DNA of 64,000 bases from Dictyostelium discoideum. Lineage: Eukaryota. Made by a program: the position numbers and the translations under genes. The notes below the pieces were generated by a model that worked only from the letters and a program-made list of their open reading frames with translations, was not told the origin of the DNA and did not search any database. The DNA lies in NCBI GenBank assembly GCA_000004695.1, contig CM000153.2:4480001-4544000 (forward strand), in the 5' to 3' direction. Positions 269 to 22,670 of this stretch are shown here, piece by piece (position 1 is the stretch's first letter; each line of letters starts with the position of its first letter).

Positions 269-2353
269 TCAATTGTTAACAATGAATTCATTATAAGCTA
301 TAATTTCAAAAGTTCTTGGACCTTGTGGTAAATAAGGGAATGTAATATTGAACCCTTTTGGAATTGGACCAGTTGCAGTTAAACTCTTTTTGATTTGAAA
401 TTGTTCATTAATAGTTATAATTGATTTTGCCCAATTCTTTGGATTGTCTAATGTGAATGATGATGTAAAGAAACCAAGATTGTTACCATTTAAAAACAAT
501 GATTTGGTAACATTGTCATAGGATAAATTAAATTCAAGGTTTGTACAATTTTGTAAATTATTAATATCTAAATTTGTAAATTTATTTCCACTAAAGATAG
601 CACTAGTCGATGGTTGCAAATAATTACAAACAACACATGATGGTGCTTGACCACCAATTAAATTATTACTAATGTCAAAATCAATTGAACACCAAGTTTC
701 ATCGATTTGTCCAGTTAATAAATTATCACTAAGATATAAAGAAATATCTTTTGAAAATAAATTTGATGGGAAACTTGTTGGAATAATACCACCCATTTTG
801 TTATTTCTTAAATAAAGGATACTTAGTTTTTTATTGAATAAATTGAAATTTATTTCATTAAAGTTACCATTTTCAAACTTGCTATAATTGGGTTTTTTTT
901 TTTTTTGATATAAAAAAAAAAAGATATTAAAAAATGTCCACTGAAATTGAATTTTTAAAGGTTAAATACTTACAAAAAGGTTAATGTTGATGGTAAAGCA
1001 GAGAATGGGAATTCACCATTTACATTGAAAATATTTCCTGCATTTGGAATATATCTTTTTTTTTTTTTTTTTCCAAAAGTTATTAATTAGTAAAAAATTA
1101 TCTGGATCGAAAGTAATGATCGAGGACTACTTACATAGAAACATCTAAACTTTCATTATAGTTGGATAAATCAATAAGGCCAAGTGGAGTGTCAATTTGG
1201 TAATTAATAGCACTATTTTTATAATTAAATTAAATTAGAATAAAGATAAGTATCAATATTATAATTTTTTAAAAAACTTACAAGCCAGTGTTTTTATTAG
1301 TACTAATTGGAATTGAAGCCAATGCCACTGGGAATGGGTAAACAACAGAATTTGATGATGTTAAAGAGAATGAAGTTACATTTGCATATGTTGAAAAAGC
1401 AGAGAATGAGTTTGAATCTGTGCCCGGTAAAAGGGTAAGTTGTCTATTGTTTTTATTATAAATAATTAGTAAATATTAATTATTGTATTGTATAAAAAAA
1501 CAAAAAAAAAAAAGAAAAACATACAATAATTCCATTAGAATATTATTCATTGATGGGATGAAATGGGTGTATGCAAAGAAGTATTCAAATGATGTCGACG
1601 TTTCAAGTAAATCATTGATATAATTGATTTTATATTTTGGATTTAAAGTTTGGGTGATGAGAGAAAACTTTTTAACATTTAAAAGACTTGAGAAATAAAT
1701 GTTTAATGGGCCAGAAAGATAAACCTTTGTACTTAAAACTGGAATTGTAATTGATTTCCCAACACCAATATCAACATCAAATATCGAAGAATTACCATTA
1801 ATTAAAGAAATCGATTTTAATGATTGAGGGAATAATCCAATTAAAAAGTTTTTAGAAACTTTGAATCCATCGATATTTCTAAAGAGAGATTTTAAATATT
1901 AATTTTGTTAGTATATATATATATATATATATAATTTTTTTTATTCTAATTTTAATATCTTACAATGTATTAATTGATGAAAAGCATTGAAAATCAGATG
2001 GTGAAATTAAATTTTTATTTGTTTGGGTCGCTCTAATATTTACAACATTTTGTGCATCACAATTAACCAAAGCATTCATAGGAGTTAATGGTGAATTACA
2101 AAAGTCGTAAAGAAGAGTGTTTGAATTATAATAAAATTCCTGGTTGACATTAGAAATTTTATTAAAGAAATTGAAAGTACATTGATCTGTAAAATTTAAA
2201 TTTAAGAATAAAAATTAGATAAAAAAAAAAAAAAAAAAAATTAAAATAAAATAAAATTAAATACTTACATTCTGATGAAGAAAGGGAAAATACATCCCCA
2301 ATAAAAAATAACAGAACTGACAAAACAATAGAGAAAAGTTTGACTAAATTCAT
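269..2353 (-). CDS. LRR receptor-like family member, copy E. Multi-exon, with a signal peptide and extracellular LRRs only. The reading frame stops before the EGF and TM region.
   Basis: The minus ATG at 2353 opens exon 1 (MNLVKLFSIVLSVLLFFIGDVFSLSSSEC), which reads as a signal peptide and ends at a GTAAGT donor near 2271. Further LRR exons lie at about 1960-2180, 1540-1880, 1290-1440, 1140-1210 and 960-1060. The terminal ORF 269..796 carries LRR motifs (LSDNLLTGQIDETWCSIDFDISNNLIGGQAPSCVVC...TGPIPKGFNITFPYLPQGPRTFEIIAYNEFI) and then a stop. In the paralogs the protein continues with IPQIDSVIRYSDYF and the EGF modules. A 3-prime exon beyond the window start cannot be excluded. Confidence 0.5.
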
Positions 2354-2590
2354 TTTTTTTTTTTTTTTTTTTTTTTTACTCAATAAATGAAATAAAAAAC
2401 TTTAAGAACAAAAAACAGAAAAAAAAAATTTTCAAAAAAAATAGAAAAAAAAAAAAAAAAAAAAAATACCCTTTATTTCGGAATAAAAAAAAAAAATTCA
2501 AGAAAAAATTTTAAAGAGACGAACCATCTAATCTCTCAAAAGGAATGAAAACATTTTTATTGATGTGATTTCTTTTGAAATACTTTAAAA

Positions 2591-5205
2591 TTAAATACGA
2601 AAATAAGCATTAATATTATAATTGGGATTATTATTACTAAAATTATGGAGAAATGGTTTGTTACTGCTACTAAATTGATAGATATCACTCCCACCATTTT
2701 TACTTGAATCACTATTATTACTTTCATTACTACTATCACTACTATTATTACTATTACTATTACTATTACTATCTATTACTATTACTATTGCTATTACTAC
2801 TACTATTACTACTATTACTACTATTACTACAAATTTTATTTTGATTATACAAAGGATAATAATTACCCTCCATTTATGATTGTTTTGGATTACTAACAAT
2901 ATAGTGTTATTATTATTAATTGTACATATTATATCTGATGGTGGATAGCATTTAATTTCAAGTTGAGTATTTGAAATGATATCGCATGGTTTATTATTGA
3001 TGGTTACTGATAAATCTATAAATATTACCGAACCAACCATTTAATATTATAGAATACCAAGTTCAGTTTGTTGTAGTTGTTGTGAATTAACTTGATGATT
3101 TGGTGTTAAACACATTGAATCAATCCATTGATTTGTACAATTACACTGACCATTGATTTGATTACAAATACCTTGATTACATCCTAATCCATTATTACAT
3201 TCACATACACCATTTATATAATTACAGAAACTACCATTTTCATCATTACAATCTGATGAACATTTCAATGATCTTAATTCACATTGATAACCTCTCCATT
3301 CATTTGAAAAACAATCACAAACACCCTTCACATAACTATATTCACCACTATTTTTAGCACAATTTGGAATTGGACAATTACTACCATTACAAATTTGATT
3401 CAATTTGAAATTAAAACTATTCGATACATTCATAACTTGAACTAAACAATTAATTTCTTTATTATTATTTACAATACCACCACTATTACTACCTACTTGT
3501 ATCACTGTTACCTTATTATTGATGATTTTATTTGAATTATAAAGATAACATTGAATTTGATTGAAATTACTTGATAATACTAAACAAGGTTCGTTTGAGA
3601 TTAAAACATTGATAACCGTATTATTATATGCAAAGTTTTTACCATTGATAATGAAATAATCTGAATATCTAATAACTGAATCAATTTGTGGTATGAATTC
3701 ATTATAAGCTGTAATTTCAAAAGTTCTTGGACCTTGAGGTAAATATGGAAATGTAATATTGAATCCTTTTGGCATTGGTTGAGTTGAAAAGATATTATTT
3801 TTCAATTGGAATGCTCTATTTGGTGTTATAATAGCAGTTGCAAAATTTTTATCAAACAATGCATGATTGGCGATTTACCACTTATTAAATTATTTCTAAT
3901 GTTACTAACATCAAAATTAACTTCACACCACTATCATCCATTTCTCCAGTAATTTCATTATTATATAAATAATATTCACTATGGGAAATTTAACTTGGTA
4001 ATGGAGTTTTAATACTATTGTTTTGAAATTTTATATATTTAATATTTGTCAATTTTTCATTAATATTTTTAAATTTACCTAAATTTCCATTCTTAAATTC
4101 ACTCTATAAAAAAGATTTAATCATTAATAACTTTTAAATGATTTTAATACTTTTACAATTGGTTGAATATATTTACAGTAAAAACAAATTTTTTGGTAAT
4201 CCAGAAAATGGAAAATCACCATCAATATTGAATAATTTACCTGAACTATTAAATTAATAGAAAAAAAGTTATAAAAGGAGTTAATAAATATCTTGTTTCA
4301 TTTGGGGTAGGATCTCATTCAATACTTTAAATAACCTTTTAATTTAACCAAAACTTACATTGATACCTCATTTTCATAATTATTTGATAAATTAATAAAG
4401 GTAGGAGGCGTATCTATTTGATAAGTAATTGTACTTAATATATTGTTTTTTTTTTAAAAAAAGTTAAAATAATTGTAATAATAATAAAAAATAATGGAGA
4501 AAATAAATAAAAAATATTTACAGACCAGTATTTTTATTTCAGCTGGTATTTCACTTAAAGCAATAGGGAAGGGATATATTTGAGTTTTGTCTGAAGGTGT
4601 TATTGAAAATGCAATTACATTTGAAAATTTTGAAAAAATTGAAAATGAATATATATCAGCTCCACCTAAAAGTGTGAGTTGACTTTTTTTTATTAAAAAA
4701 TGTTTTTTTTTTAAATAATTATTAATATTTATAACATTGGGTAAAAAAAAAAAAAAAAAAAAAAATATATATATAAAAAATAATAAAAAAAAAAAAAATT
4801 TGTAAATACAAACAAAATAGATAAATTAATGTTTTTCACTGATGGTATATTATGAGAATATATGTTATAAATATTGAAAATGGCAGTCGTGGTATCATTC
4901 AAGTCATTTATAAAATTTATTTTATATTTTGGTTTTTGAGTTTGGTTTTTCAACTGAAATTTTTGAACATTTAAAAAACTTGAGAAATATATATTTAGTG
5001 GTCCAGAAAGGTACAATAATAAACTTAATGATTCTACTTGTATAATTTTATTGAACCCAATTTCCACATCAAATAATGATGAATTACCAATAAATAATGA
5101 CATACATGTTAAAGTATTTGGAAATTTTCCTATTAAAAAATTATTTTCAACTTTAAATAAATCTATATTACTGATTTATATTATTTACATATTAGATTTA
5201 TGTAT

Positions 5206-5241
<36 letters not shown>

Positions 5242-6110
5242 TTTTTTTTTTTTTTCAAAAACACTTACATAGAATTTAATGATGAAAAACATTGAAAATC
5301 AATTGGAGATGAACCATTCTAATACCTTCAACAGCTGTTGAACATTATCACAATAATTTATATAAATGATTTATTAGTTAAATAAAATTAGTTAAAAATA
5401 CTCGCCTAAATTATTGCTCATGTTTTATCAGAATCTTGTAATAGAAAAATAAAATAAAATTAAATAAATAAATATATATAAATAAAAATAAAGTAATAAG
5501 TTGATGTTATCGACAATATCTAAAATTTATTATACATGTTTTTTTATTATTGAAAATTTTTACTTATTATATTTGAGATTTAAAATTATGTTTATGAGTT
5601 TTTCAATCGACATTAAAAACTCACCACGTGACTTTTTCCCACCTAGGTGAGAAAAGTCTAATTATATAAACATAAATTATTTTAGTTTGTGAGCGAGATT
5701 GTATCTAATTTAAAATCTTGATAAAACATAATTTTATTGTAACAATTTAATTATTACATAATTATATTACAACAAACAGCTCCCTTGTTATTACATATGA
5801 AATGGTTATATGGATCAAGTGCTACAGCACTACAAAAACTATATCCATTGAATGTTGTATCCAATGGGTGCTCTTTAGAAGCCTGATTAATTTTATTAAA
5901 TAAATGTAATGTACAATTATCTTTTTACAAATGAAAAGGATTGTTGAGATTATTAATTTTCTACTCAAAAAAAAAAAAAAAAAAAAAAAAATTAATTACA
6001 AACTTACACTCTGATTCAATGAGTTGATTTTGTGAATTAACTAAATTTTTATTTTGACATATTATAAATAAAAGTAAAAGAATAATACTATTTAAAACTC
6101 CCATGTTCAT
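2591..6110 (-). pseudogene. LRR-EGF-TM receptor-like family member, copy D, disrupted.
   Basis: The minus ATG at 6110 gives MNMGVLNSIILLLLFIICQNKNLVNSQNQLIESEC, a signal peptide. The EGF-module ORF 3047..3859 is nearly identical to copy C. The TM-containing C-terminal part 2591..3040 is in a different frame, so there is a frameshift at about 3040-3047. The LRR region around 3860-3960 shows a further frameshift and deletion (TGEMDDSGVKLILMLVTLEII then stop, against TGEMDDSWCSITFDISNNLIGGKAPS in the intact copies). Exon 2 is split by a roughly 440 bp insertion at 5337-5774, and an in-frame stop sits at about 5310. Confidence 0.6.
5337..5774. mobile_element. Candidate non-autonomous DNA transposon (MITE-like) inserted into exon 2 of copy D.
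   Basis: The insert is flanked by a 7 bp direct repeat AACAGCT at 5330-5336 and 5775-5781. Its ends are imperfect inverted repeats: the left end reads GTTGAACATTATCACAATAATT, and the reverse complement of the right end reads TGTTGTAATATAATTATGTAATAATT. Inside is a near-perfect 29 bp palindrome GACTTTTTCCCACCTAGGTGAGAAAAGTC at 5630-5658, next to a CACGTG palindrome. Homologous exon-2 sequence in copies A, B and C is uninterrupted. Confidence 0.35.
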
Positions 6111-6595
6111 TATAAAAAAAAAAAAAAATAAATAAATAAAAATAAAAAAAAAAATAAAAAAAATAATAACAATAAATAGATTTTTTACAAAACCATAAAA
6201 AAACCAAAAATAAAAAAAAAAAAAAAAAAAACCAGATCGATAGTTTTGATATTTTTACAATTTTTTTAAATTAATGTGGCAAATAAAAATTTTATTTTAT
6301 TTTATTTTATTTTGTTTTTTTTTTAAAAAATGTTAATATTCTTTTTTTTTTTTTTTTTGGGTGAACCCCTAAATTATTGTTGGCAGATATTTAGTATTTT
6401 ATTATAATTTTTTTTTTTTTTTTTTTTTAAATCCCTATCATTTAGATTTAAAACACACATTTTATTTTAAAATTTACTTTTTATAAATAAAATTTTTTTT
6501 TTATTATTTTTCATTATTATTATTATTATTATTATTATAATTATTATTATCTTATTATTATTATTATTTATTATTATTATTACAATTTCAATGCA

Positions 6596-7325
6596 TTAAA
6601 TGATATAATGAAAATAATTATTGATATCCATTGTTGATTCATAGTATTTTTCATTTTCTTTCCATTCCAATACATTAAATGATTTCAATTCTCGAAGTTG
6701 TTGTTGAGAAATTGATGGCTGATTAATTTTTTTAATTTTAAAATTATTGCCTAATCCCAATAACATTAAGTCCGATTTACTAACTCTACCAATTGTTATT
6801 TTTTCATTTGCAATTGACATCAAAGAAATATTGGATAAACTTACAAACGGTAATTTTTTTTTTATTATTAAAATTTAAAAATCATATTAATTTAAAATTA
6901 ATACAATTAAGTAATACAAGTAGATTTATATGCACTTGAAAATAATTTTAATTGTAGATTGGATACACTTGAAAATAATTTTATTAATATTAAAAAAGGT
7001 ATTATTTTACAATTATTATAAATATTTGTTTTTTACTTTATTTATTTATATATAATTTATTTACTGGATTTATTTTACTATCTATTCATTTATAGCAATT
7101 GCAAATGAAAAAATAACAATTAGTAGAGTTAGTAAATCGGACTTAATGTTATTGGGATTAGGCAATAATTTTAAAATTAAAAAAATTAATCAGCCATCAA
7201 TTTCTCAACAACAACTTCAAGAATAAAAATCATTTTATGTATTCGAATGTAAAGAAAATGAAAAATACTATAAATCCACAATGGATATCAATAATTATTT
7301 TCATTATATCATTGATCAAGAAATT
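6596..7325. repeat. Long-armed inverted repeat (foldback-type structure). Arms are about 230 bp at about 6596-6826 and 7095-7325, with a spacer of about 268 bp.
   Basis: Six-frame ORF 6596..6823 on the minus strand and the plus-strand stretch at about 7100-7320 translate to the same peptide (IANEKITI[GS]RVSKSDLMLLGLGNNFKIKKINQPSISQQQL...EKYY[EK]STMDINNYFHYII). The two arms are therefore reverse complements at roughly 90 percent identity. Identity stops at the palindromic GCAATTGC on the inner side. The outer ends share TTTCAAT...AATGATATAATGAAAATAATTATTG. The structure lies in the 1.5 kb intergenic region between copy D and copy C. It has no counterpart between copies A and B or between C and A. 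Confidence 0.6.
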
Positions 7326-7638
7326 GAAAATATTGAAAATATATACTTGTCTAATATTTCAAATCAACATACATATATTATGTTGAAAATCTTTCAAATA
7401 TCGAATTTGATAAAGTTTATCTTGGTTTTGAAGTTAAATCAACATAGCCGAATTAATTGCAATTACAAGAAAATCAAACGGTTGCACCCAATTCTCCAGG
7501 TTTCAACAAATTTTATTGATAATTATATATTTTCATTTGGGATAATGAAGGTAATGTAAATTGGGGTTTAAATTAAAAAAAAAAAAAAAGTTAAAAATAA
7601 AAACGTTTAAAACAAAATAATAGAGATGTGTATTATTT

Positions 7639-11127
<3,489 letters not shown>

Positions 11128-11400
11128 TCCAAAAAAAAAAATATGTAAAAAAAAAATATGCAAAAAAAAAAAAAATATGCAAAAAAAAAAAGAAGATCGA
11201 GAAAATAAAAAACCCCCAAAAAAACCGATAAAAAAATAAAAATATGCAAAAAAAAAAAAAAAAAAATAAAAAAATGAAGATCAAGGCAATGAAAAAGCGA
11301 CAAAAAAAAAAAACGATAAAAAAAAAAAACTACAAAAACATTTAGCATCTATAAGTCATTTAAAAAAAAAAAAAAAAAAAAAACTTCATTTAAGATTTTA

Positions 11401-13332
11401 TTAAAATTTAATATCTGTTTCTTCCAACTCTGTGAAATTTTTTTTATCTTTAAATATTTTTCTAGTTATTACTTTGCATTGATTACTTTTAATAACCAAA
11501 ACTAAAAGGATTATTAAAATTACAGATGGAATTAAAATTGATATTATAACTAAAATATTTTTTCTGGAAAATTTTGGATTTTGAGCATCCTCCTTATTTT
11601 CACCATTAATATCATTGCCACTACTATTACTACTATTACTACTACTACTACTACTACCATTATTAATACACACGCTAATACCATCTAAAGGTGTTGGGTT
11701 ATAAAATCCACTCCAATGAACATTGTTTTGAACAACTGATAATTCCAGATTATTATTATTATATTGGTAACAATAGATGTCTGATGGATAACATTCGACC
11801 ATATAGTCAGAATCTGCAACAATGTCACATTCTATTTGATTTACTTTAATAGTTAGATCATTTCGAAAAATTTCACTACCAAACCAACCATTTAATATTA
11901 ATAGATTACCAAGAGCACCTCGTTTAATTTCTTGTGAGGTAACCATAGTATTAGGTATATTACAATTTGAAGCAGTCCATTGAATAGTACAATTACATTG
12001 ACCAAATAAATAATCACAAATTCCACCATTACTACAACCTAATCCTTCATTACATAGTCTACCACTACAATCATCGAATATTCTATTTTCATTACATTCG
12101 CATTTACCATTAATATTATTACAAATACCACCACCATCATTATTACTACAATCTGATGAGCATTTCAATGGTTTTTGTTCACATTGATAACCTCTCCATT
12201 TATTGGAAAAACAATCACAGACTCCACTCTCTTTATTATATACACCTCCATTTTTTATATTACATACCGGAATTGGACAATTAATACCATTACAAATTTG
12301 ATTCAATTTGAAATTAAAACTATTCGATACATTCATAACTTGAACTAAACAATTAATTTCAATACTACTACTACTACTGCTGCTATCACTGTTACTATTA
12401 TTATTGATGATTTTATTTGAATTATAAAGATAACATTGAATTTGATTGAAATTACTTGATAATACTAAACAAAGTTCGTTTGAGATTAAAACATTGATAA
12501 CCGTATTATTATATGCAAAGTATTTACCATTGATAATGAAATAATCTGAATATCTAATAACTGAATCAATTTGTGGTATGAATTCATTATAAGCTGTAAT
12601 TTCAAAAGTTCTTGAACCTTGTGGTAAATATGGAAATGTAATATTGAATCCTTTTGGCATTGGACCAGTTACTCTATTATTCTTTGTAATTTCAAATAAT
12701 GTATTTTCAATTTTAATATTTTCTGCCCAAATATTTGGATTATCTAATTTGAATGATATACCAAAACCAAGATCTCTACCATATAGCATCAATGATTTAG
12801 TTTGATTATCATATGATAGATTTAGTTCAATAGTAGTACAATCTTCTAAATGGTTAATATCTAAATTTGTGAATCTATTACCATTAACAATTGCACTAGT
12901 AATTGGATTAAGGTAATGACAAACTACACATGATGGTGCTTTACCACCAATTAAATTATTACTAATATCGAAAGTTATTGAACACCAACTATCATCCATT
13001 TCACCTGTTAATTTATTATCATTTAAATATAACTCAAGTAAAACATCCATTGATTTAATAAAAGATGATGTTGGTAATTTACTGGTTAAACCATTAAATG
13101 ATAAATCTATTATATTTGTTTTCTCTTTGAAAATATTAAAATTGATTACACTTATATTTCCATTTTTCAATTGACTTTTGAAAAAAAAAAAATTAGTATA
13201 CTATTATTATATTTATCTTGTGTTTTAATTATTATTATTTTAAAATAGTTACAATGTATTTAAATTTGGTGGTAACACTGAAAATGGAAAGTTACCATTA
13301 ATATTGAATAAATTACCTGCCTTTGCAATATA

Positions 13333-13384
<52 letters not shown>

Positions 13385-13524
13385 AGGTAAATAAATATAG
13401 GCCTTAAAATATATATATAAAGAATAAAAACATACATTGCCGAATCATCAGGGTAATTTGAGAAGTCTATATAATCAATTGGTTTTTCAATTTGATACTC
13501 AATCGAACTATTATTTAATTAGTA

Positions 13525-13567
<43 letters not shown>

Positions 13568-14613
13568 TAATTAATAATAAATTAATTAATAATTAATAAT
13601 TAATAATTAATAATAATACTTACAAACCAGTATTTTTATTAATAGAAATTGGTATTTTAGTTAAGGCTATTGGAAATGGGTAGATATGTGATGGATCTGC
13701 TGATTTCAAGTTTAAACCTTCAATTTTTGAATAAGTTGAAAAATTAGAAAATGAATTTATGTCTGTACCTGGCAACAGAATAAATTGTCTAAATTATATA
13801 AATTAATACTGTCATTAATATCATTTTGGAAATATATAATTTAAAAACTATTATAAAATAAATAAAATAAATAAATAAAAATTTATGTACATACAATGTC
13901 ATGCCTTTAAAGTTATCCATGGATGGTATAGAGTGTGTGTATATTTGAAAAATTCGAAAATATTGGTTATCTGTTATTATGGAATGATCATTTATATCAT
14001 TTATATATTTGATTTTATATTTTGGTGCTAATGTTTGAGTTGAGAGAGAAAAATCTATTACATTCAAAAGATTTGATAAATAAATATTTAGAGGTCCTGA
14101 AAGGAATAATTTCACTGAAAGATTATTGAATGGTATTGTTTTATTTACACCACTATCAATATTAAATAATGTTGAATCACCATTAAGTAATGATACCATT
14201 TTCAATGATTCAGGAAATTTCCCTAATAAAAATTGATTTGTAACTCTGAATTTATCTATATTTCTATAATTTGATAAACATATGTTATTATTATTAGTTA
14301 TTAGTTATTATTATTAGTTATTATTATTAGTTATTATTATTAGTTATTATTATTAATATTTTTATTTTATAATGATATACATTGTATTTAAAGTTGAATA
14401 ACATTGAAAATGTTCAGGTGATAATAAATTTGCTTTATTTTTATGTGTTGCTCTTATATATATAACCGTTCTAGAAGTTTCATTGCAATGAATCACCATA
14501 TCCATTGGATGAATTGGAGTACCACAAAAATTATATCCATTGAATGAACTATCTATTCGATATTCAACAGATACTCGTGATATTATATTTAATAGTTTTA
14601 TTGTACAATTATC

Positions 14614-14681
<68 letters not shown>

Positions 14682-14850
14682 TTTTAAAAATACAATATAT
14701 TAGTTACAATATTAAAAAATTGGTCAATAAATAATTACAATGAATAAATAAATAAAAAATACTACATTCAGATTCAATGAGTGGATTTTGTGAATTTATT
14801 ATTTTCACTGAAAATATAAATAATAAAAGTAAAATTAATATTCCTCTCAT
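11401..14850 (-). CDS. LRR-EGF-TM receptor-like family member, copy A. Intact, about 8 exons.
   Basis: Exon 1 starts at the minus ATG 14850 and encodes MRGILILLLLFIFSVKIINSQNPLIESEC, with a GTATTT donor. Exon 2 lies at about 14400-14600 (DNCTIKLLNIISRVSVEYRIDSSFNGYNFCGTPIHPMDMVIHCNETSRTVIYIRATHKNKANLLSPEHFQCYSTLNTM). LRR exons follow at about 13870-14300, 13620-13790, 13440-13520 and 13255-13437 (GNFPFSVLPPNLNT). The terminal exon is 11401..13174, with acceptor TTCAAAAG and phase 1. It encodes LRRs, the conserved PKGFNITFPYLPQG block, four or more EGF-like modules (CDCFSNKWRGYQCE, CSSDCSNNDGGGICNNINGKCECN, CNEGLGCSNGGICDYLFGQCNC), a Ser-rich stalk, the TM segment ILVIISILIPSVILIILLVLVI and the tail KSNQCKVITRKIFKDKKNFTELEETDIKF. 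Confidence 0.6.
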
Positions 14851-15366
14851 AATTTTAAATATTTCTTTAATTGCATTTATCTAACATATTTTTTGTTTTA
14901 AAGTTTTTTTCTTTTCTTTTTCTATTTCTTTTTCTTTTTTAACGAATCATTTAAAATAAAAATAAATTTTACAAGTGTTTGCGTCTTTAGTCAAAAAAAA
15001 AAAAAAAAAATAAAAATAAAAATAAAAATAAAATAAAATTTAAAAAAATAAGTTTAGACCATTTTTTTTTTTTTTTTCAAAGAAACTAGTTTATAAAAAT
15101 GGTAAGGAAAATTACTTTTATTTATTTATTTTTTAAAAATTATATATTCCATCATAAATTTCTTTTTTTTTTGATTATTATTTCTTTTTTTTTTTTCAAC
15201 TTTTTTTTTTTTTTCAACTTTTTTTTTTTCCCAATTTGAAGATAATCCCAACTTTAAAAATTACATTGATACTGGTGCTTTTATTTTAATAATAAAAACA
15301 ATACAAATATCTTTTTTTAATTTTTTTAATTTTTTTTTTATTAATAAATAATCACAATATTAATTA

Positions 15367-17240
15367 TTAAAATTTAATATCTGTTTCTTCCAACTCTATG
15401 AAAATTTTTTTTTTATCTTTAAATGTGTTTCTAATTTTTACTTTGCATTGATTACTTTTAATAGCTAAAACTAAAAGGATTATTAAAATTACAGATGAAA
15501 TTAAAATTAATATTAAAATTAAAATATTTTTTCTGGAAAATTTTGGATTTTGAGCATCCTCCTTATTCTCACCATTAATACCATCGCTACTACTATTACT
15601 ACTATTACTACTACTACTACTACTACCATTATTAATACACACGCTAATACCATCTAAAGGTGTTGGGTTATAAAATCCACTCCAATGAACATTGTTTTGA
15701 ACAACTGATAATTCCAGATTATTATTATTATATTGGTAACAATAGATGTCTGACGGATAACATTCGACCATATAGTCAGAATCTGCAACAATGTCACATT
15801 CTATTTGATTTACTTTAATAGTTAGATCATTTCGAAAAATTTCACTACCAAACCAACCATTTAATATTAATAGATTACCAAGAGCACCTCGTTTAATATC
15901 TTGTGAGGTAACCATAGTATTAGGTATATTACAATTTGAAGCAGTCCATTGAATAGTACAATTACATTGACCAAATAAATAATCACAAATTCCACCATTA
16001 CTACAACCTAATCCTTCATTACATAGTCTACCACTACAATCATCGAATATTCTATTTTCATTACATTCGCATTTACCATTAATATTATTACAAATACCAC
16101 CACCATCATTATTACTACAATCTGATGAGCATTTCAATGGTTTTTGTTCACATTGATAACCTCTCCATTCATTTGAAAAACAATCACAAACTCCACTCTC
16201 TTTATTATATACACCTCCATTTTTTATATTACACACTGGAACTGGACAATTACTACCATTACAAATTTGATTCAATTTGAAATTAAAACTATTCGATACA
16301 TTCATAACTTGAACTAAACAATTAATTTCTTTATTATTATTTACAATACCACCACTATTACTACTACTTGTATCACTGTTACCATTATTATTATTGATGA
16401 TTTTATTTGAATTATAAAGATAACATTGAATTTGATTGAAATTACTTGATAATACTAAACAAGGTTCGTTTGAGATTAAAACATTGATAACCGTATTATT
16501 ATATGCAAAGTATTTACCATTGATAATGAAATAATCTGAATATCTAATAACTGAATCAATTTGTGGTATGAATTCATTATAAGCTGTAATTTCAAAAGTT
16601 CTTGAACCTTGTGGTAAATATGGAAATGTAATATTGAATCCTTTTGGCATTGGACCAGTTACTCTACTATTCTTTGTAATTTCAAATAATTTATTTCGAA
16701 TTTTTATATATTTTACCCATAAATTTGGATTATCAAATTTGAATGATTTACCAAAACCAAGATCTCTACCATATAGCATCAATGATTTAGTTTGATTATC
16801 ATATGATAGATTTAGTTCAATAGTAGTACAATCTTCTAAATGGTTAATATCTAAATTTGTGAATCTATTACCATTAACAATTGCACTAGTAATTGGATTA
16901 AGGTAATGACAAACTACACATGATGGTGCTTTACCACCAATTAAATTATTACTAATATCGAAAGTTATTGAACACCAACTATCATCCATTTCACCTGTTA
17001 ATTTATTATCATTTAAATATAACTCAAGTAAAACATCCATTGATTTAATAAAAGATGATGTTGGTAATTTACTGGTTAAACCATTAAATGATAAATCTAT
17101 TATATTTGTTTTCTCTTTGAAAATATTAAAATTGATTACACTTATATTTCCATTTTTCAATTGACTTTTGAAAAAAAAAAAATTAAAATAAAAAAAAAAT
17201 TAGTATTTTTATACTATTATTATATTTATCTTGTGTTTTA

Positions 17241-17294
<54 letters not shown>

Positions 17295-18252
17295 TTAAAA
17301 TAGTTACAATGTATTTAAATTTGGTGGTAACACTGAAAATGGAAAGTTACCATTAATATTGAATAAATTACCTGCATTTGTAATAAATCTGTTTTTTTTT
17401 TTTTTAAAAAAAAGGTAAATAAATTTAGGTTTAAAATATATATATATATATTAAAAACATACATTCCCTCCACCAAATCATCATCAGAGTAATTTGACAA
17501 GTCTATATAATCAATTGGTTTTTTAATTTGATACCCAATCGAACTATTATTTAATTAGTAAATAATAATAATTATTAGTAATAAATAATTAATAATTAAT
17601 AATACTTACAAACCAGTATTTTTATTAATAGAAATTGGTATTTTAGTTAAGGCTATTGGAAATGGGTAGATATGTGATGGATCTGCTGATTTCAAGTTTA
17701 AACTTCTAATTTTTGAATAAGTTGAAAAATTAGAAAACGAATTTTGGTCTGTACCTGGCAACAGAGTAAATTCTCTAAATTATATATAAATTTTTTATAT
17801 TAATATTATTTTGGAAATATATTATTTAAAAATTATTATAAATAAATAAAATTTAAATACATACAATAAACCACCTTTTAAGTTATCCATGGATGGTATA
17901 GAGTGTGTGTATATTGGAAAAATTCGAAAATATTGGTTATCTGTTATTATGGAATGATCGTTTATATCATTTATATAGTTGATTTTATATTTTGGTGCTA
18001 ATGTTTGAGTTGAGAGAGAAAAATCTATTACATTCAAAAGATTTGATAAATAAATATTTAGAGGTCCTGAAAGGAATAATTTCACTGAAAGATTATTGAA
18101 TGGTATTGTTTTATTTACACCACTATCAATATTAAATAATGTTGAATCACCATTAAGTAATGATACCATTTTCAATGATTCAGGAAATTTCCCTAATAAA
18201 AATTGATTTGTAACTCTGAATTTATCTATATTTCTATAATTTGATAAACATA

Positions 18253-18334
<82 letters not shown>

Positions 18335-18779
18335 ATTTTATATTAACATACATTTTATTTAAAGCTGAATAACATTGAAAATGGTCAGGTGATAATAAAT
18401 TTGTTTTATTTTTATGTGTTGCTCTTATATGTCTAACCGTTCTAGAAGTTTCATTGCAATCAATCGAAAAATCGATTGGATAAATCGGGATACCACAAAA
18501 ATTATATCCATTGAATGAACTATCTATTCGATATTCAATAGATGCTTGTGATATTATATTTAATAGATTTATTGTACAATTATCTAAAAATAATAATAAT
18601 AATAATATTTTTTAAAAATACAATACATAAGTTAATATTAAAAAAATGATGATAATTACAATAAATAAATGAATGAATAAAAATAAAATACTACATTCTG
18701 ATTCAGTGAGTGGGTTTTGTGAATTTATTATTTTAATTGAAAATATAAATAATAAAAGTAAAATTAATATTCCTCTCAT
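15367..18779 (-). CDS. LRR-EGF-TM receptor-like family member, copy B. Intact. A near-identical tandem duplicate of copy A.
   Basis: The minus ATG at 18779 gives MRGILILLLLFIFSIKIINSQNPLTESEC. The exon pattern is the same as copy A: 18360-18600, 17900-18330, about 17640-17760, 17315-17500 and the terminal exon 15367 to about 17164. The 597-aa terminal ORF is about 97 percent identical to the 589-aa ORF of copy A. Introns and the upstream region (15060-15240 against 19040-19230) are also conserved. The spacing between copies is 3966 bp. Confidence 0.6.
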
Positions 18780-19664
18780 GATTTTAAATATTTCTTTAAT
18801 TGCATTTATCTAACATATTTTTTGTTTTAAAGTTTTTTTTTTCTTTTCTTTTTCTTTTTTTTTTTTATTGAACCATTTAAAATATTAATAAAATTGATAA
18901 GTGGGTGTTTTTGGTAAAAAAAAAAATAAAATAAAAAAAATAAAAATAAAATAAAATTAAAAAAAAAAAATAAAAGTTTTGGGAATTTAAAGGCAAAATC
19001 AATATTAATTGCCATTTTATTTTATTTTTTTTTTTTTTTAAGGAAGTATTTCATAAAAATGGTAAGGAAAATTACTTTTATTTTTTATTTTTTAAAAATT
19101 ATATATTCCACCATAAATTTCTTCTTTTTATTTGATTATTATTTTTTTTAATTTTTTTTTTCAACTTTTTTTTTTCAATTTTTTTTTTTAACTTTTTTTT
19201 TTCAACTTTAATATTACATTGATACTGGTGCTTTTATATTAATTATAAAATGATTTGAAACTAATTACAATGAAAACAATACCATAGAAACCTAAATAAA
19301 CAAAGTGATGTCAGTCAATATTGGTTTGTTTTACTTTCAAATAACACTTAAAAATTCAAATAATCCCATAACCCAGTAGTAGCAAAAATATCAGCAACAA
19401 CATCACCATCATCATTTTCGGTAATATTGAAAAACTAAACTCATCAACACCAATTATTTAATTTTATCACATCATTAAACCACCACCATCACAATCTTCA
19501 AACCCAACAATTCATCACCAAATTAGGTGTTACAATAATGAGTAATATTTCTCACAAGTCACTGTTTATATCGTCAAATAATGTTTTAATTTTTATTTTA
19601 ATTTTATATTTAAATTTATTTTATATATTTAGATTTTATTAATTAAAAAAAAAAGTTTAAACAG

Positions 19665-21414: not shown

Positions 21415-21649
21415 TTACTGATCCTATAATTTAATTATACATTTTTTAAAGTATTTATTAATTTATAATAAATAATAATACTACTAATAATTATTTTAAT
21501 CAAAAAAAAATAATAAAAAATAATAAAAAAATAAAAACTATTCAAAATATTAAAAATATAAATATTAATCAAAAACATTTTTTTATTTGTTTATTTTTTT
21601 TTTATTTTTTTCGTTGCTTAAAAAAATAATAATAATAATAATTATAATA

Positions 21650-21691
21650 ATAATAATTCAATAAAATAATAATAATAAAAATAATAATAAA

Positions 21692-21732
<41 letters not shown>

Positions 21733-21800
21733 TAATAATAATAATAAAATAATAATAATAATAATAAAATAATAATAGTAATAATAAAAAACAAAATAAA

Positions 21801-21896
<96 letters not shown>

Positions 21897-21930
21897 TATA
21901 ATAATAATAATAATAATAATAATTCACTCA
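21650..21930. repeat. (AAT)n microsatellite, about 280 bp, intergenic.
   Basis: A long run of TAA triplets with a few AAAA interruptions. It underlies the poly-Y ORF 21658..21927. Confidence 0.8.
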
Positions 21931-22670
21931 TTTATATATATATAATTTTTTTCTATATATATATATATTTTTTACCTTTATGAATTAATTTTTTTTTTTT
22001 TAAAAAAAAAAAATTAAATATTATTAAATAATTCAATAGTAAATTTACTTTTCTTTTTTCTTCTTAATAAAGAGAAAGAAAAATAAAATTATAATTTAAA
22101 AAATTATAATTATAAAAAAAATACAATTACTAAATTAATATTTATTATAAAATGACAATTTTAGGTAATTATACAATTAATTTTTCTTCTTTAAAATTAG
22201 CTATTTACTAAATTTTTCTTCTTTAATTAATTTTCTAGAATCAATAACTAAAATTTCAAACGCATCGATGGATATTAATAAAATAAATAGTAACAATAGT
22301 AACAACATTAATAATAATAGTAATAAAATAATACAGCAACTACCATTCATAAATATATATGAAAAATCAATATGTACCGCTATAATTCCTCATAATGAAA
22401 TTGAGAGGAAAATGCCAATTTTTAAAAGATTTTGTTAGACAATCAAAAAAAAAAAAAAGAAAAAAAAAAAAAGAAAAGAAAAAAAAAATAGCAAAATACA
22501 TTAGATAATTCAATCTTTTTTTTATTGTAAATAGCCTCCTCCAATTTTGTTTTCCTTCACTCAAAAAGATTGAACTTATCACAATAATACCAACAAATAA
22601 CAATGAAATAAATATTAAAAATAAACAATAGAAATGACAAAGTTAATTTTTTTGGTTTGACCGATACAAC

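What the first reader, a model, noticed from the sequence alone, without database searches (positions are those of the whole stretch)
11401..19250. A 3.95 kb perfect-orientation tandem duplication (copies A and B), including introns and promoter
Copies A and B are about 97 percent identical at the protein level. Their introns and 400 bp upstream regions are also near-identical. The period is 3966 bp. Such a young duplication is prone to unequal crossing-over and to assembly collapse. The few differences cluster in the stalk and first EGF module (NSNSDSSSSSSSIEINC against NNGNSDTSSSNSGGIVNNNKEINC), which hints at localised diversification.
Basis: seen in the sequence. Interest (0 to 1): 0.5.

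Follow-up and report, generated by a model that had tools for sequence, protein, structure and literature searches.

The report
Patchwork tandem duplicate of ComC-like gene
Two neighbouring copies of a Dictyostelium cell-surface receptor gene are a genuine head-to-tail duplication, but not a simple young one: about half of each copy has recently been copied onto the other while the rest is old and diverged, and two other wild strains carry only one copy. This is ordinary gene-family behaviour.

Summary
The duplication is real. Two ~3.95-kb head-to-tail units lie on the minus strand: A at 11398-15363 and B at 15364-~19258. Each holds an intact 7-exon gene for a ComC-family membrane protein (LRR, TIG, EGF, TM). 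They are the newest two of a five-gene array (269-18779) in D. discoideum.

It is not an assembly artefact. A second, long-read assembly carries both units with all of their differences.

- The proteins are 92% identical, not 97%.
- Introns carry 19 indels.
- The upstream region is ~87% identical in aligned columns.

"Young duplication" is misleading, because divergence is bimodal. About 53% of the gene body is 99.4% identical, including exact tracts of 437 and 288 nt. The rest is 7-15% diverged. In the diverged blocks B branches outside copy A plus the single-copy orthologues of two wild strains. In the near-identical blocks A and B group together. This fits an older duplication patched by gene conversion.

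The stalk "diversification" is an 18-nt deletion that A shares with those orthologues. B matches paralogue D there.

Both ORFs are maintained, and dN/dS between them is about 1. Copy number differs between strains. Interest is low to moderate.

The parts
11398..15363 (-). Duplication unit A: gene A, its ~430-450 nt homologous upstream region, and the junction filler.
   Evidence: Self-alignment. Boundaries.
15364..19258 (-). Duplication unit B: gene B and its upstream region. Unambiguous homology to A's upstream ends at 19258. Weak similarity continues to about 19318.
11401..14850 (-). Gene A (ACTFIT_005391, 926 aa). It has 7 exons: 14850-14763, 14612-14381, 14263-13895, 13788-13624, 13507-13436, 13333-13253 and 13174-11401. 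It keeps the ancestral downstream flank.
   Evidence: Exact spliced mapping of P0001 with GT-AG introns. Its downstream flank matches that of strains W and R.
15367..18779 (-). Gene B (ACTFIT_005390, 937 aa). It equals AX4 DDB_G0286437 apart from an extra 45-nt intron in the AX4 model. It has 7 exons: 18779-18692, 18583-18352, 18233-17865, 17774-17610, 17543-17463, 17388-17308 and 17164-15367. It keeps the ancestral upstream flank.
   Evidence: Upstream alignment.
15306..15363 (-). Junction filler between B's stop codon and the start of A's clearly homologous upstream region. It is AT-rich, has no counterpart downstream of A, and no identifiable source.
12759..13195 (-). Longest exact A=B tract, 437 nt (B 16749-17185), covering the end of the LRR and the first beta-sandwich. 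Inferred to be a recent gene-conversion tract.
   Evidence: Exact match. Permutation p<1e-4, and A/B differ from W and R at 22-24 sites here.
14009..14296 (-). Second exact A=B tract, 288 nt (B 17979-18266), in exon 3.
   Evidence: Six consecutive sites with an A+B shared derived state.
11620..12200 (-). EGF to third beta-sandwich block, 99.2% identical between A and B (B 15589-16169). It contains exact tracts of 271, 165 and 143 nt.
14297..14850 (-). Most diverged block (exon 1 to intron 2). A-B is 12.0%, A-W 4.9%, B-W 12.9% and A-citrinum 15.4%. B branches outside A+W+R here.
12260..12399 (-). A carries an 18-nt deletion and substitutions shared with strains W and R. B is identical to paralogue D.
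12275..12674 (-). TIG/stalk segment homogenised across the whole array. It corresponds to B 16244-16664, C 8525-8930 and D 3372-3789.
   Evidence: Paralogues are 89-100% identical here against 50-80% in the flanks. That is closer than orthologues between species.
7639..11127 (-). Array member C, an older paralogue. It is ~74% identical to A in the 3' half and ~62% in the 5' half.
2591..6104 (-). Array member D. Its ORF is broken or split. Its N-terminal half is AX4 DDB_G0286435.
269..2353 (-). Array member E (AX4 DDB_G0286431, 472 aa), a truncated paralogue with the LRR part only.

Best explanation
This is a genuine in-situ tandem duplication of a complete ComC-family gene together with ~450 nt of its promoter-proximal DNA. 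It gives the two youngest members (A and B) of a five-gene head-to-tail array in D. discoideum.

The two sequence lineages separated after the split from D. citrinum. They separated before copy A's lineage parted from the single-copy orthologues of two other D. discoideum strains.

Since then, repeated non-allelic gene conversion between A and B has overwritten about half of the gene body. One short patch also involves paralogue D. This leaves a mosaic of near-identical tracts and old, 7-15% diverged blocks.

The single-copy strains either lost one unit by unequal crossing-over or descend from a haplotype that never had it.

Both copies remain functional genes. In the unconverted parts, amino-acid change runs at about the neutral rate, mostly on B.

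Shown directly: the duplication, its boundaries, the mosaic, the discordant trees, the copy-number difference and the intact ORFs. Inferred: gene conversion as the mechanism, the order of events, and the protein's function as a surface receptor or adhesion protein.
For: REALITY OF THE DUPLICATION
- The self-alignment is strong.
- Both GenBank proteins map exactly onto the window.
- An independent long-read assembly is 99.77% identical over 23.5 kb. It has only two homopolymer differences inside the units and keeps all 156 substitutions between A and B.

BOUNDARIES
- A keeps the W/R downstream flank and B keeps the W/R distal upstream flank.

COPY NUMBER
- L001 and L005 have a single gene between the prefoldin gene and copy C.

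MOSAIC
- Low-divergence blocks total 10/1750 differences and high-divergence blocks 146/1553 (p=2e-37).
- The longest exact tract is 437 nt. The permutation maximum was 297, so p<1e-4.
- In the low blocks A and B are still 4-5% from W and R, with about 20 synonymous differences. Constraint therefore does not explain the identity.

DISCORDANT HISTORY
- Polarised informative sites fall in alternating blocks: 31 are A+B-derived and 22 are A+W+R-derived (runs test p=0.02).
- B matches the outgroup at 22 of 83 B-unique sites, against ~7-12% expected from homoplasy (p<=2e-4).
- Intron mismatch is 6.7% for A-B and 3.8% for A-W (p=0.03).

ORIGIN AFTER SPECIATION
- A and B are equally distant from the D. 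citrinum orthologue.
- There is no signal linking B to D. citrinum's upstream paralogue.

CONVERSION IS ACTIVE IN THIS ARRAY
- The TIG segment is 89-100% identical among A, B, C and D.
- C and D are 96-100% identical over ~800 nt.
- The same pattern occurs in D. citrinum.

BOTH COPIES FUNCTIONAL
- All 35 cysteines, the signal peptide and the TM segment are conserved.
- All five exon indels are in-frame. Exons have 5 events per 2814 nt against 19 per 519 nt in introns (p=7e-12).

SELECTION
- For A-B, dN and dS are both 0.038, so dN/dS is 1.0, against 0.37-0.41 for orthologues (p=0.003).
- Branch counts are B 47N:10S and A 10N:3S, against 37N:31S for the shared A+B versus W/R differences (p=0.001).
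Against: - No reads were available, so copy number rests on assemblies only.
- Gene conversion is inferred from pattern, and no formal recombination software was run.
- The runs test on polarised sites is only p=0.02.
- In this AT-rich DNA, homoplasy and intron misalignment inflate noise. Multiple-alignment and pairwise intron divergences differ (11.5% against 6.7%).
- Synonymous-site counts in exons 1-6 are small. They give dS(A-B)=0.047, below dS(A-W)=0.081, although that set includes the homogenised exon 3.
- A duplication formed from two already divergent alleles would give much the same pattern.
- The direction of change (gain in the NC4/AX lineage or loss in the others) is not resolved.
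- The identification of the strains behind the locus-tag prefixes (AX2-214, OT3A, CR116C) is inferred from assembly statistics in PMC12745789, not read from the records.
Confidence: 0.75

Rival explanations
1. The physical duplication is recent. It arose by unequal crossing-over between two already divergent haplotypes, so A and B started out different. The mosaic then reflects earlier allelic recombination rather than conversion after the duplication.
For: - The old blocks of B are more diverged from A than A is from the other strains' alleles. That is what pre-existing allelic divergence would give.
- The locus varies in copy number between strains that form macrocysts together (PMC12745789), so sexual recombination is possible.
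Against: - No single-copy strain with a B-type allele was seen. Both W and R are A-type along their whole length.
- Four separate tracts are 99-100% identical while both copies differ 4-5% from W and R. This needs several recent exchanges between the A and B lineages in any case.
- B-specific changes are strongly enriched for non-synonymous sites (47:10) compared with allelic differences (37:31).
Confidence: 0.13
2. This is a simple young duplication. A single recent event was followed by ordinary point mutation, and the differences concentrate where selection favours diversification.
For: - Overall gene-body identity is 95.3%, and exon 7 is 97.6% identical.
- dN/dS is about 1 or above in the LRR, linker and tail parts.
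Against: - Divergence is bimodal (0.57% against 9.4%, p=2e-37), and introns take part in the high class.
- B retains the outgroup state at 22 sites where A, W and R share a derived base. Faster evolution of B cannot produce that.
- The stalk difference is a deletion in A shared with other strains.
Confidence: 0.07
3. This is an assembly artefact: a falsely duplicated single locus.
For: None found beyond the general risk for AT-rich repeats.
Against: - The units differ by 156 substitutions and more than 20 indels.
- Dictyostelium discoideum amoebae are haploid, as stated in PMC12745789.
- A second assembly made with different technology has the same two units.
- The AX4 gene models map exactly onto the window.
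Confidence: 0.01

Closest known systems
ComC-family EGF-like-domain proteins of group-4 dictyostelids (Pfam PF24141 LRR_ComC, PF24143 Beta-sand_ComC_2nd). The type member is D. discoideum comC.
   Same: - The architecture matches: signal peptide, LRR_ComC domain, TIG/beta-sandwich, EGF-like repeats and one TM helix.
- comC is listed as an EGF-domain protein with signal peptide and TM that is restricted to group 4 (PMC4931340).
- From my own memory, not checked here: comC acts in intercellular communication upstream of lagC/tgrC1 (Kibler et al. 2003, Dev Biol).
   Different: - A and B are uncharacterised paralogues annotated as hypothetical proteins.
- Identity to comC itself was not measured.
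- No functional data exist for DDB_G0286437, and no paper mentions it.
Concerted evolution of tandem gene duplicates by non-allelic gene conversion. Textbook cases are primate gamma-globin and alpha-globin pairs and opsin arrays.
   Same: - The copies are head-to-tail.
- Near-identical tracts have sharp edges inside otherwise diverged copies.
- Tree topology changes along the gene.
- Copy number varies through unequal exchange.
   Different: - Here the evidence comes from pattern only, in a haploid social amoeba, with four strains or species as comparators.
- Tract lengths (140-440 nt exact) and donor direction are not established.
tgr (TIG/EGF) cell-surface gene family and the tgrB1/tgrC1 allorecognition locus of Dictyostelium (Holland et al. 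2025, PMC12745789).
   Same: - These are cell-surface TIG/EGF-type proteins in tandem clusters.
- They duplicate, recombine and differ in gene content between closely related isolates.
   Different: - This is a different family, with an LRR_ComC ectodomain.
- It lies at a different locus. The AX4 gene numbers place it in the DDB_G02864xx series, on the 5.45-Mb AX4 contig.
- Turnover is much more modest, at one unit gained or lost.
- There is no evidence for a role in recognition.
LRR-ectodomain receptors such as plant LRR receptor kinases, Toll-like receptors, LGR5 and Lingo-1.
   Same: The confident part of the AlphaFold model (residues ~70-440) is an LRR solenoid. It matches these ectodomains with Foldseek E-values of 1e-5 to 1e-3.
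   Different: - TM-scores are low (0.1-0.35).
- There is no sequence match to any PDB chain.
- There is no kinase or TIR domain, only a ~25-residue cytoplasmic tail.
- The resemblance is at fold level only.

Membership tests
ComC-family proteins (Pfam LRR_ComC architecture) | LRR_ComC domain (PF24141) above Pfam's gathering score. | tested here: met
   A scores 55.5 bits and B 51.0 bits against a cut-off of 27, covering profile positions 2-287 of 288.
ComC-family proteins (Pfam LRR_ComC architecture) | ComC second beta-sandwich (PF24143) or IPT/TIG domain following the LRR. | tested here: inconclusive
   TIG scores 26.1 and 26.7 bits against a cut-off of 20.9, so it is met. Beta-sand_ComC_2nd scores 22.3 and 18.5 bits against a cut-off of 27, so it is below threshold. 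The AF2 model is poor in this region.
ComC-family proteins (Pfam LRR_ComC architecture) | EGF-like repeats, a signal peptide and a single TM helix (type I membrane protein). | tested here: met
   EGF_TEN matches at 32.7 bits, below its 65-bit cut-off, but the Cys-rich EGF spacing is present and all 35 Cys are conserved between the copies. There is a hydrophobic N-terminus and a predicted TM helix at 873-902.
ComC-family proteins (Pfam LRR_ComC architecture) | A role in developmental cell-cell communication, as for comC. | not testable with these tools
   No expression or mutant data were available, and no paper mentions DDB_G0286437.
Tandem segmental duplication | Two adjacent copies in the same orientation. 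One copy keeps each ancestral flank and there is a single novel junction. | tested here: met
   Strains W and R supply the single-copy reference arrangement.
Tandem segmental duplication | Both copies are really present in the genome, not an assembly artefact. | tested here: met
   A second independent assembly carries both copies. Direct read evidence was not available.
Concerted evolution by non-allelic gene conversion | Differences between paralogues are significantly clustered, with identical tracts longer than chance allows. | tested here: met
   The exact tract is 437 nt against a permutation maximum of 297 (p<1e-4). Low blocks against high blocks give p=2e-37.
Concerted evolution by non-allelic gene conversion | Phylogenetic discordance along the gene: paralogues group together in the tracts and orthologues group together outside them. 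| tested here: met
   The runs test gives p=0.02. The excess of sites where B equals the outgroup gives p<=2e-4.
Concerted evolution by non-allelic gene conversion | Identity within the tracts is not explained by purifying selection. | tested here: met
   Within the tracts A and B differ 4-5% from W and R, including synonymous sites. In the LRR-end, TIG, EGF and third beta-sandwich parts, dS(A-B) is about 0.025 against about 0.11 for dS(A-W).
tgr allorecognition-type hypervariable locus | Membership of the tgr family, and extreme allelic polymorphism with large unalignable haplotype blocks. | tested here: not met
   The domain content is LRR_ComC, not the multi-TIG Tgr type. The flanks and neighbours C, D and E are colinear and 84-92% identical between strains.

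The most novel reading that the evidence does not exclude
The five-gene ComC-like array might be a second fast-evolving cell-surface recognition locus in Dictyostelium, loosely analogous to tgrB1/tgrC1. Under this reading, duplication, loss of units between strains and short conversion patches among paralogues would shuffle LRR ectodomain variants. The dN/dS of about 1 or above in the N-terminal cap, the LRR and the tail would then reflect diversifying selection rather than relaxed constraint.
Probability: 0.1. Interest if true: 0.6.

Novelty: new member of a known kind. Interest (0 to 1): 0.25.

Why it matters
The practical points come first.
- Identity between tandem paralogues is a poor clock when conversion is active. 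This pair looks young in its large exon but is older than the strain splits in its 5' third.
- Short-read mapping, CRISPR guides, knock-outs and expression counts for DDB_G0286437 will cross-hit its neighbour. The neighbour shares exact tracts of up to 437 nt.
- I found no AX4 protein model for that neighbour.
- The locus differs in copy number between interfertile D. discoideum strains. It therefore adds a small, clean example of gain or loss plus concerted evolution in an uncharacterised family of LRR/EGF surface proteins related to the developmental gene comC.

None of this is surprising for a multigene family.

Tried and rejected
- **AX4 DNA.** Look-ups by the AX4 proteins P0031 and P0029 found nothing on record. 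I therefore could not check directly whether the AX4 reference contains copy A. I only showed that three AX4 gene models map exactly onto the window and that no AX4 protein model for A or C turned up.
- **Second protein search.** A search with A's N-terminal third returned only 4 hits and missed even P0001. It was not useful for finding B-type relatives.
- **B as positional orthologue of D. citrinum's upstream paralogue.** The idea was attractive because that pair is also homogenised in its 3' half. It was rejected because B-unique states match cit_up no more often than the controls do (6 against 5 sites). B is also as close to the D. citrinum A-orthologue as A is.
- **Source of the junction filler.** Only low-complexity hits were found.
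- **Literature.** There are no papers on DDB_G0286437. The comC/lagC and comC/tgrC1 searches gave nothing or only a table entry.
- **Structure.** The AF2 model is confident only for the LRR part (mean pLDDT 61). I did not use it to map substitutions onto surfaces. Foldseek gave only generic LRR ectodomains and the PDB sequence search gave none.
- **First self-BLAST.** A self-BLAST with sensitive settings timed out and was replaced by megablast.
- **Other features.** There are no tRNA genes in 1-30 kb. There are no sizeable ORFs between B and the prefoldin gene.


Full report
**1. What the window is**

The window has ~20% G+C. Its ORFs match Dictyostelium discoideum proteins.

The DNA encodes three AX4 reference gene models exactly. 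These are DDB_G0286431, DDB_G0286435 and DDB_G0286437.

It is 99.77% identical over 23.5 kb to contig CM142510.1 of assembly GCA_054883475.1, locus-tag prefix ACTFIT. That assembly belongs to the Nanopore+Illumina set of Holland et al. 2025 (PMC12745789). From its statistics I infer it is the lab strain AX2-214.

Nearly all differences between the window and that assembly are homopolymer lengths. The window is therefore consistent with the Sanger AX4 reference, though I could not fetch AX4 DNA to prove it.

**2. The observation**

A direct repeat of ~3.95 kb is present. All the genes lie on the minus strand.

The GenBank proteins ACTFIT_005391 (P0001, 926 aa) and ACTFIT_005390 (P0032, 937 aa) map exactly onto the window as two 7-exon GT-AG genes:
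- A runs from 14850 to 11401.
- B runs from 18779 to 15367.

AX4's DDB_G0286437 is B with one extra 45-nt intron in its model.

Homology at the 3' end stops 3 nt after the stop codon, at 11398/15364, giving an offset of 3966. Upstream, unambiguous homology starts near 15305/19258. A shared motif lies at 15283/19236, giving an offset of 3953.

Between B's stop codon and that point lie ~60-80 nt of AT-rich filler without an identifiable source.

A retains the downstream flank seen in single-copy strains, and B retains their distal upstream flank. That is the arrangement expected for an in-situ tandem duplication.

**3.

- Protein identity is 92.4% overall, 94.4% for the exon-7 part and 89.0% for the N-terminal third.
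- Gene-body DNA has 156 substitutions in 3303 aligned columns, or 95.3% identity.
- Exons range from 90% to 98% identical.
- Introns have 6.7% mismatches and 19 indel events, and their lengths differ by up to 65 nt.
- The upstream region is ~87% identical in aligned columns.

**4. Context**

A and B are the last two members of a five-gene head-to-tail array, E-D-C-A-B, spanning 269-18779. No further members occur in the window.

All belong to the ComC family. LRR_ComC scores 55.5 bits against a cut-off of 27. TIG is above its cut-off, and EGF-like repeats are present.

An AlphaFold model is confident for the LRR solenoid (about residues 70-440) and shows a TM helix at 873-902. Its closest solved folds are generic LRR ectodomains. 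No PDB chain matches by sequence.

**5. Not an artefact, and variable between strains**

The second assembly reproduces both units. Only two homopolymer-length differences fall inside them.

Two other D. discoideum assemblies were compared. These are ACTFIW and ACTFIR, which I infer to be OT3A and CR116C. Each has one gene between the prefoldin gene and copy C, with colinear flanks.

D. citrinum has one orthologue plus a more distant upstream paralogue.

**6. The duplication is a mosaic**

The 5' 1.6 kb and the 3' 1.8 kb give different nearest neighbours.

| Region | A-B identity | A-W/R identity | B-W/R identity |
|---|---|---|---|
| 5' 1.6 kb | 92.6% | 94.3% | 90.2% |
| 3' 1.8 kb | 97.5% | 95-96% | 94-95% |

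Block by block, A-B divergence is bimodal.

| Class | Block | A-B divergence |
|---|---|---|
| Low | exon 3 | 1.0% |
| Low | 13199-12759 | 0% |
| Low | TIG | 0.4% |
| Low | EGF to third beta-sandwich | 0.8% |
| High | exon 1 to intron 2 | 12.0% |
| High | intron 3 to intron 6 | 7.8% |
| High | 12758-12677 | 14.6% |
| High | stalk | 7.9% |
| High | tail | 6.8% |

The low blocks total 10/1750 differences and the high blocks 146/1553 (p=2e-37).

Exact identical tracts reach 437, 288, 271 and 203 nt. Random placement of the differences never exceeded 297 nt in 10,000 permutations.

The low blocks are not slow-evolving. A and B each differ there by 4-5% from the other strains' orthologues, including about 20 synonymous differences.

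**7. Polarity**

The two D. citrinum orthologues served as outgroup. This gave 31 sites with a derived state shared by A and B. It gave 22 sites with a derived state shared by A, W and R while B stays ancestral.

The two kinds of site lie in alternating blocks (runs test p=0.02).

B matches the outgroup at 22 of 83 B-unique sites. Only ~7-12% would be expected from homoplasy (p<=2e-4).

Introns agree: A-B mismatch is 6.7% against 3.8-3.9% for A-W/R (p=0.03).

In block 1, B is nearly as far from A (12.0%) as A is from D. citrinum (15.4%).

In the unconverted blocks, therefore, B's lineage is older than the split between A and the other strains' orthologues. In the identical tracts the copies have exchanged sequence very recently.

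B is not the orthologue of D. citrinum's upstream paralogue. The duplication therefore arose within the discoideum branch.

**8. The stalk**

It is not local diversification.

A's form carries an 18-nt deletion and substitutions shared with both other strains. B's form is identical at the DNA level to paralogue D over that stretch. The inserted bases are also present in C and in the D. citrinum orthologue.

B has either retained the ancestral form or received it from D.

More generally, a ~400-nt TIG/stalk segment is 89-100% identical among A, B, C and D while the flanks are 50-80% identical. That is closer than orthologues are between species. D. citrinum's own paralogues show the same pattern. 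Conversion is therefore a standing property of this array.

**9. Selection**

Between A and B, dN = dS = 0.038, so dN/dS is 1.0.

| Part | dN/dS (A-B) |
|---|---|
| N-terminal cap | 1.1 |
| LRR (exons 2-6) | 1.4 |
| Linker and first beta-sandwich | 1.9 |
| Tail | 1.6 |
| EGF | 0.16 |
| Third beta-sandwich | 0.25 |

Orthologue comparisons give 0.37-0.41 (Fisher p=0.003).

By parsimony the changes are 47N:10S on B and 10N:3S on A. The shared A+B against W/R differences are 37N:31S (p=0.001).

Neither copy looks like a pseudogene. All 35 cysteines, the signal peptide and the TM segment are kept. All five exon indels are multiples of three. Exons have 5 events per 2814 nt against 19 per 519 nt in introns (p=7e-12).

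Where the amino-acid differences lie is set largely by where conversion has not reached. There are none in residues 107-224 or 313-478, which are the two longest identical tracts.

Whether dN/dS of about 1 means relaxed constraint or a mix of purifying and diversifying selection cannot be settled with these data.

**10. Verdict**

This is a real tandem gene duplication, already present as two hypothetical-protein models in a public annotation, in a known family.

The analysis adds four points:
- It is not uniformly young.
- It is a conversion mosaic.
- It is polymorphic in copy number.
- The stalk difference has a simple historical explanation.

This is textbook multigene-family behaviour, so interest is low to moderate.

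The most novel reading not excluded is that the array is a diversifying recognition locus. I give that about 10%.

Noticed in passing
window 10535-11225 (5' end of array member C): Ten of the 14 substitutions between the window and the AX2-like assembly cluster in these ~700 nt. The window has G or C where the other assembly has T or A. An extra C at 10535 appears to break the reading frame, giving overlapping ORFs at 10118-10570 and 10518-10982. Copy C is an intact 939-aa model in the other assembly. This could be sequencing error in one assembly or a real strain difference.
   Followed up: partly
window 2591-6104 (array member D): Copy D is fragmented. AX4's DDB_G0286435 covers only its N-terminal half (6104-3993). 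The C-terminal half is split into two ORFs, 3047-3859 and 2591-3040. The AX2-like annotation instead has a model of 1210 aa or more that runs off the end of the fetched locus. D is probably a pseudogene or is mis-modelled.
   Followed up: partly
window 269-2353 (array member E, DDB_G0286431): This is a truncated family member of 472 aa. It ends just after the first beta-sandwich and has no TIG, EGF or TM part, so it may be a secreted LRR-only paralogue.
   Followed up: no
window 6599-6827 and 7085-7313: A 229-nt inverted repeat, 94% complementary, lies in the spacer between C and D. Both arms match the last 41 residues of the C-type protein annotated in another strain (P0005).
   Followed up: no
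A 12275-12674, B 16244-16664, C 8525-8930, D 3372-3789: The TIG/stalk coding segment is 89-100% identical among all four full-length paralogues, while the flanks are 50-80% identical. That is closer than orthologues between species. C and D are 96-100% identical over ~800 nt. This indicates array-wide concerted evolution with a preferred segment.
   Followed up: yes
L003 6190-13887 and L004 6167-13593 (D. citrinum): D. citrinum has its own adjacent pair, an upstream paralogue and the A-orthologue. They are 96-100% identical over ~900 nt of the last exon but only ~70% identical in the 5' half. This is an independent example of the same mosaic pattern.
   Followed up: partly
window 7639-9252 (copy C large ORF) and 21440-21950: Copy C carries a ~40-residue poly-asparagine run. 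A 13%-GC low-complexity repeat field with 9-12 nt periodicity lies between B and the prefoldin gene. Both are typical of Dictyostelium.
   Followed up: no
AX4 annotation (protein database, not window coordinates): No AX4 protein model corresponding to copy A or copy C was found, although the window encodes an intact A. The 90% cluster of A holds only ACTFIT_005391, ACTFIT_005390 and DDB_G0286437. Either these genes are unannotated or pseudogene-flagged in AX4, or AX4 lacks them.
   Followed up: partly
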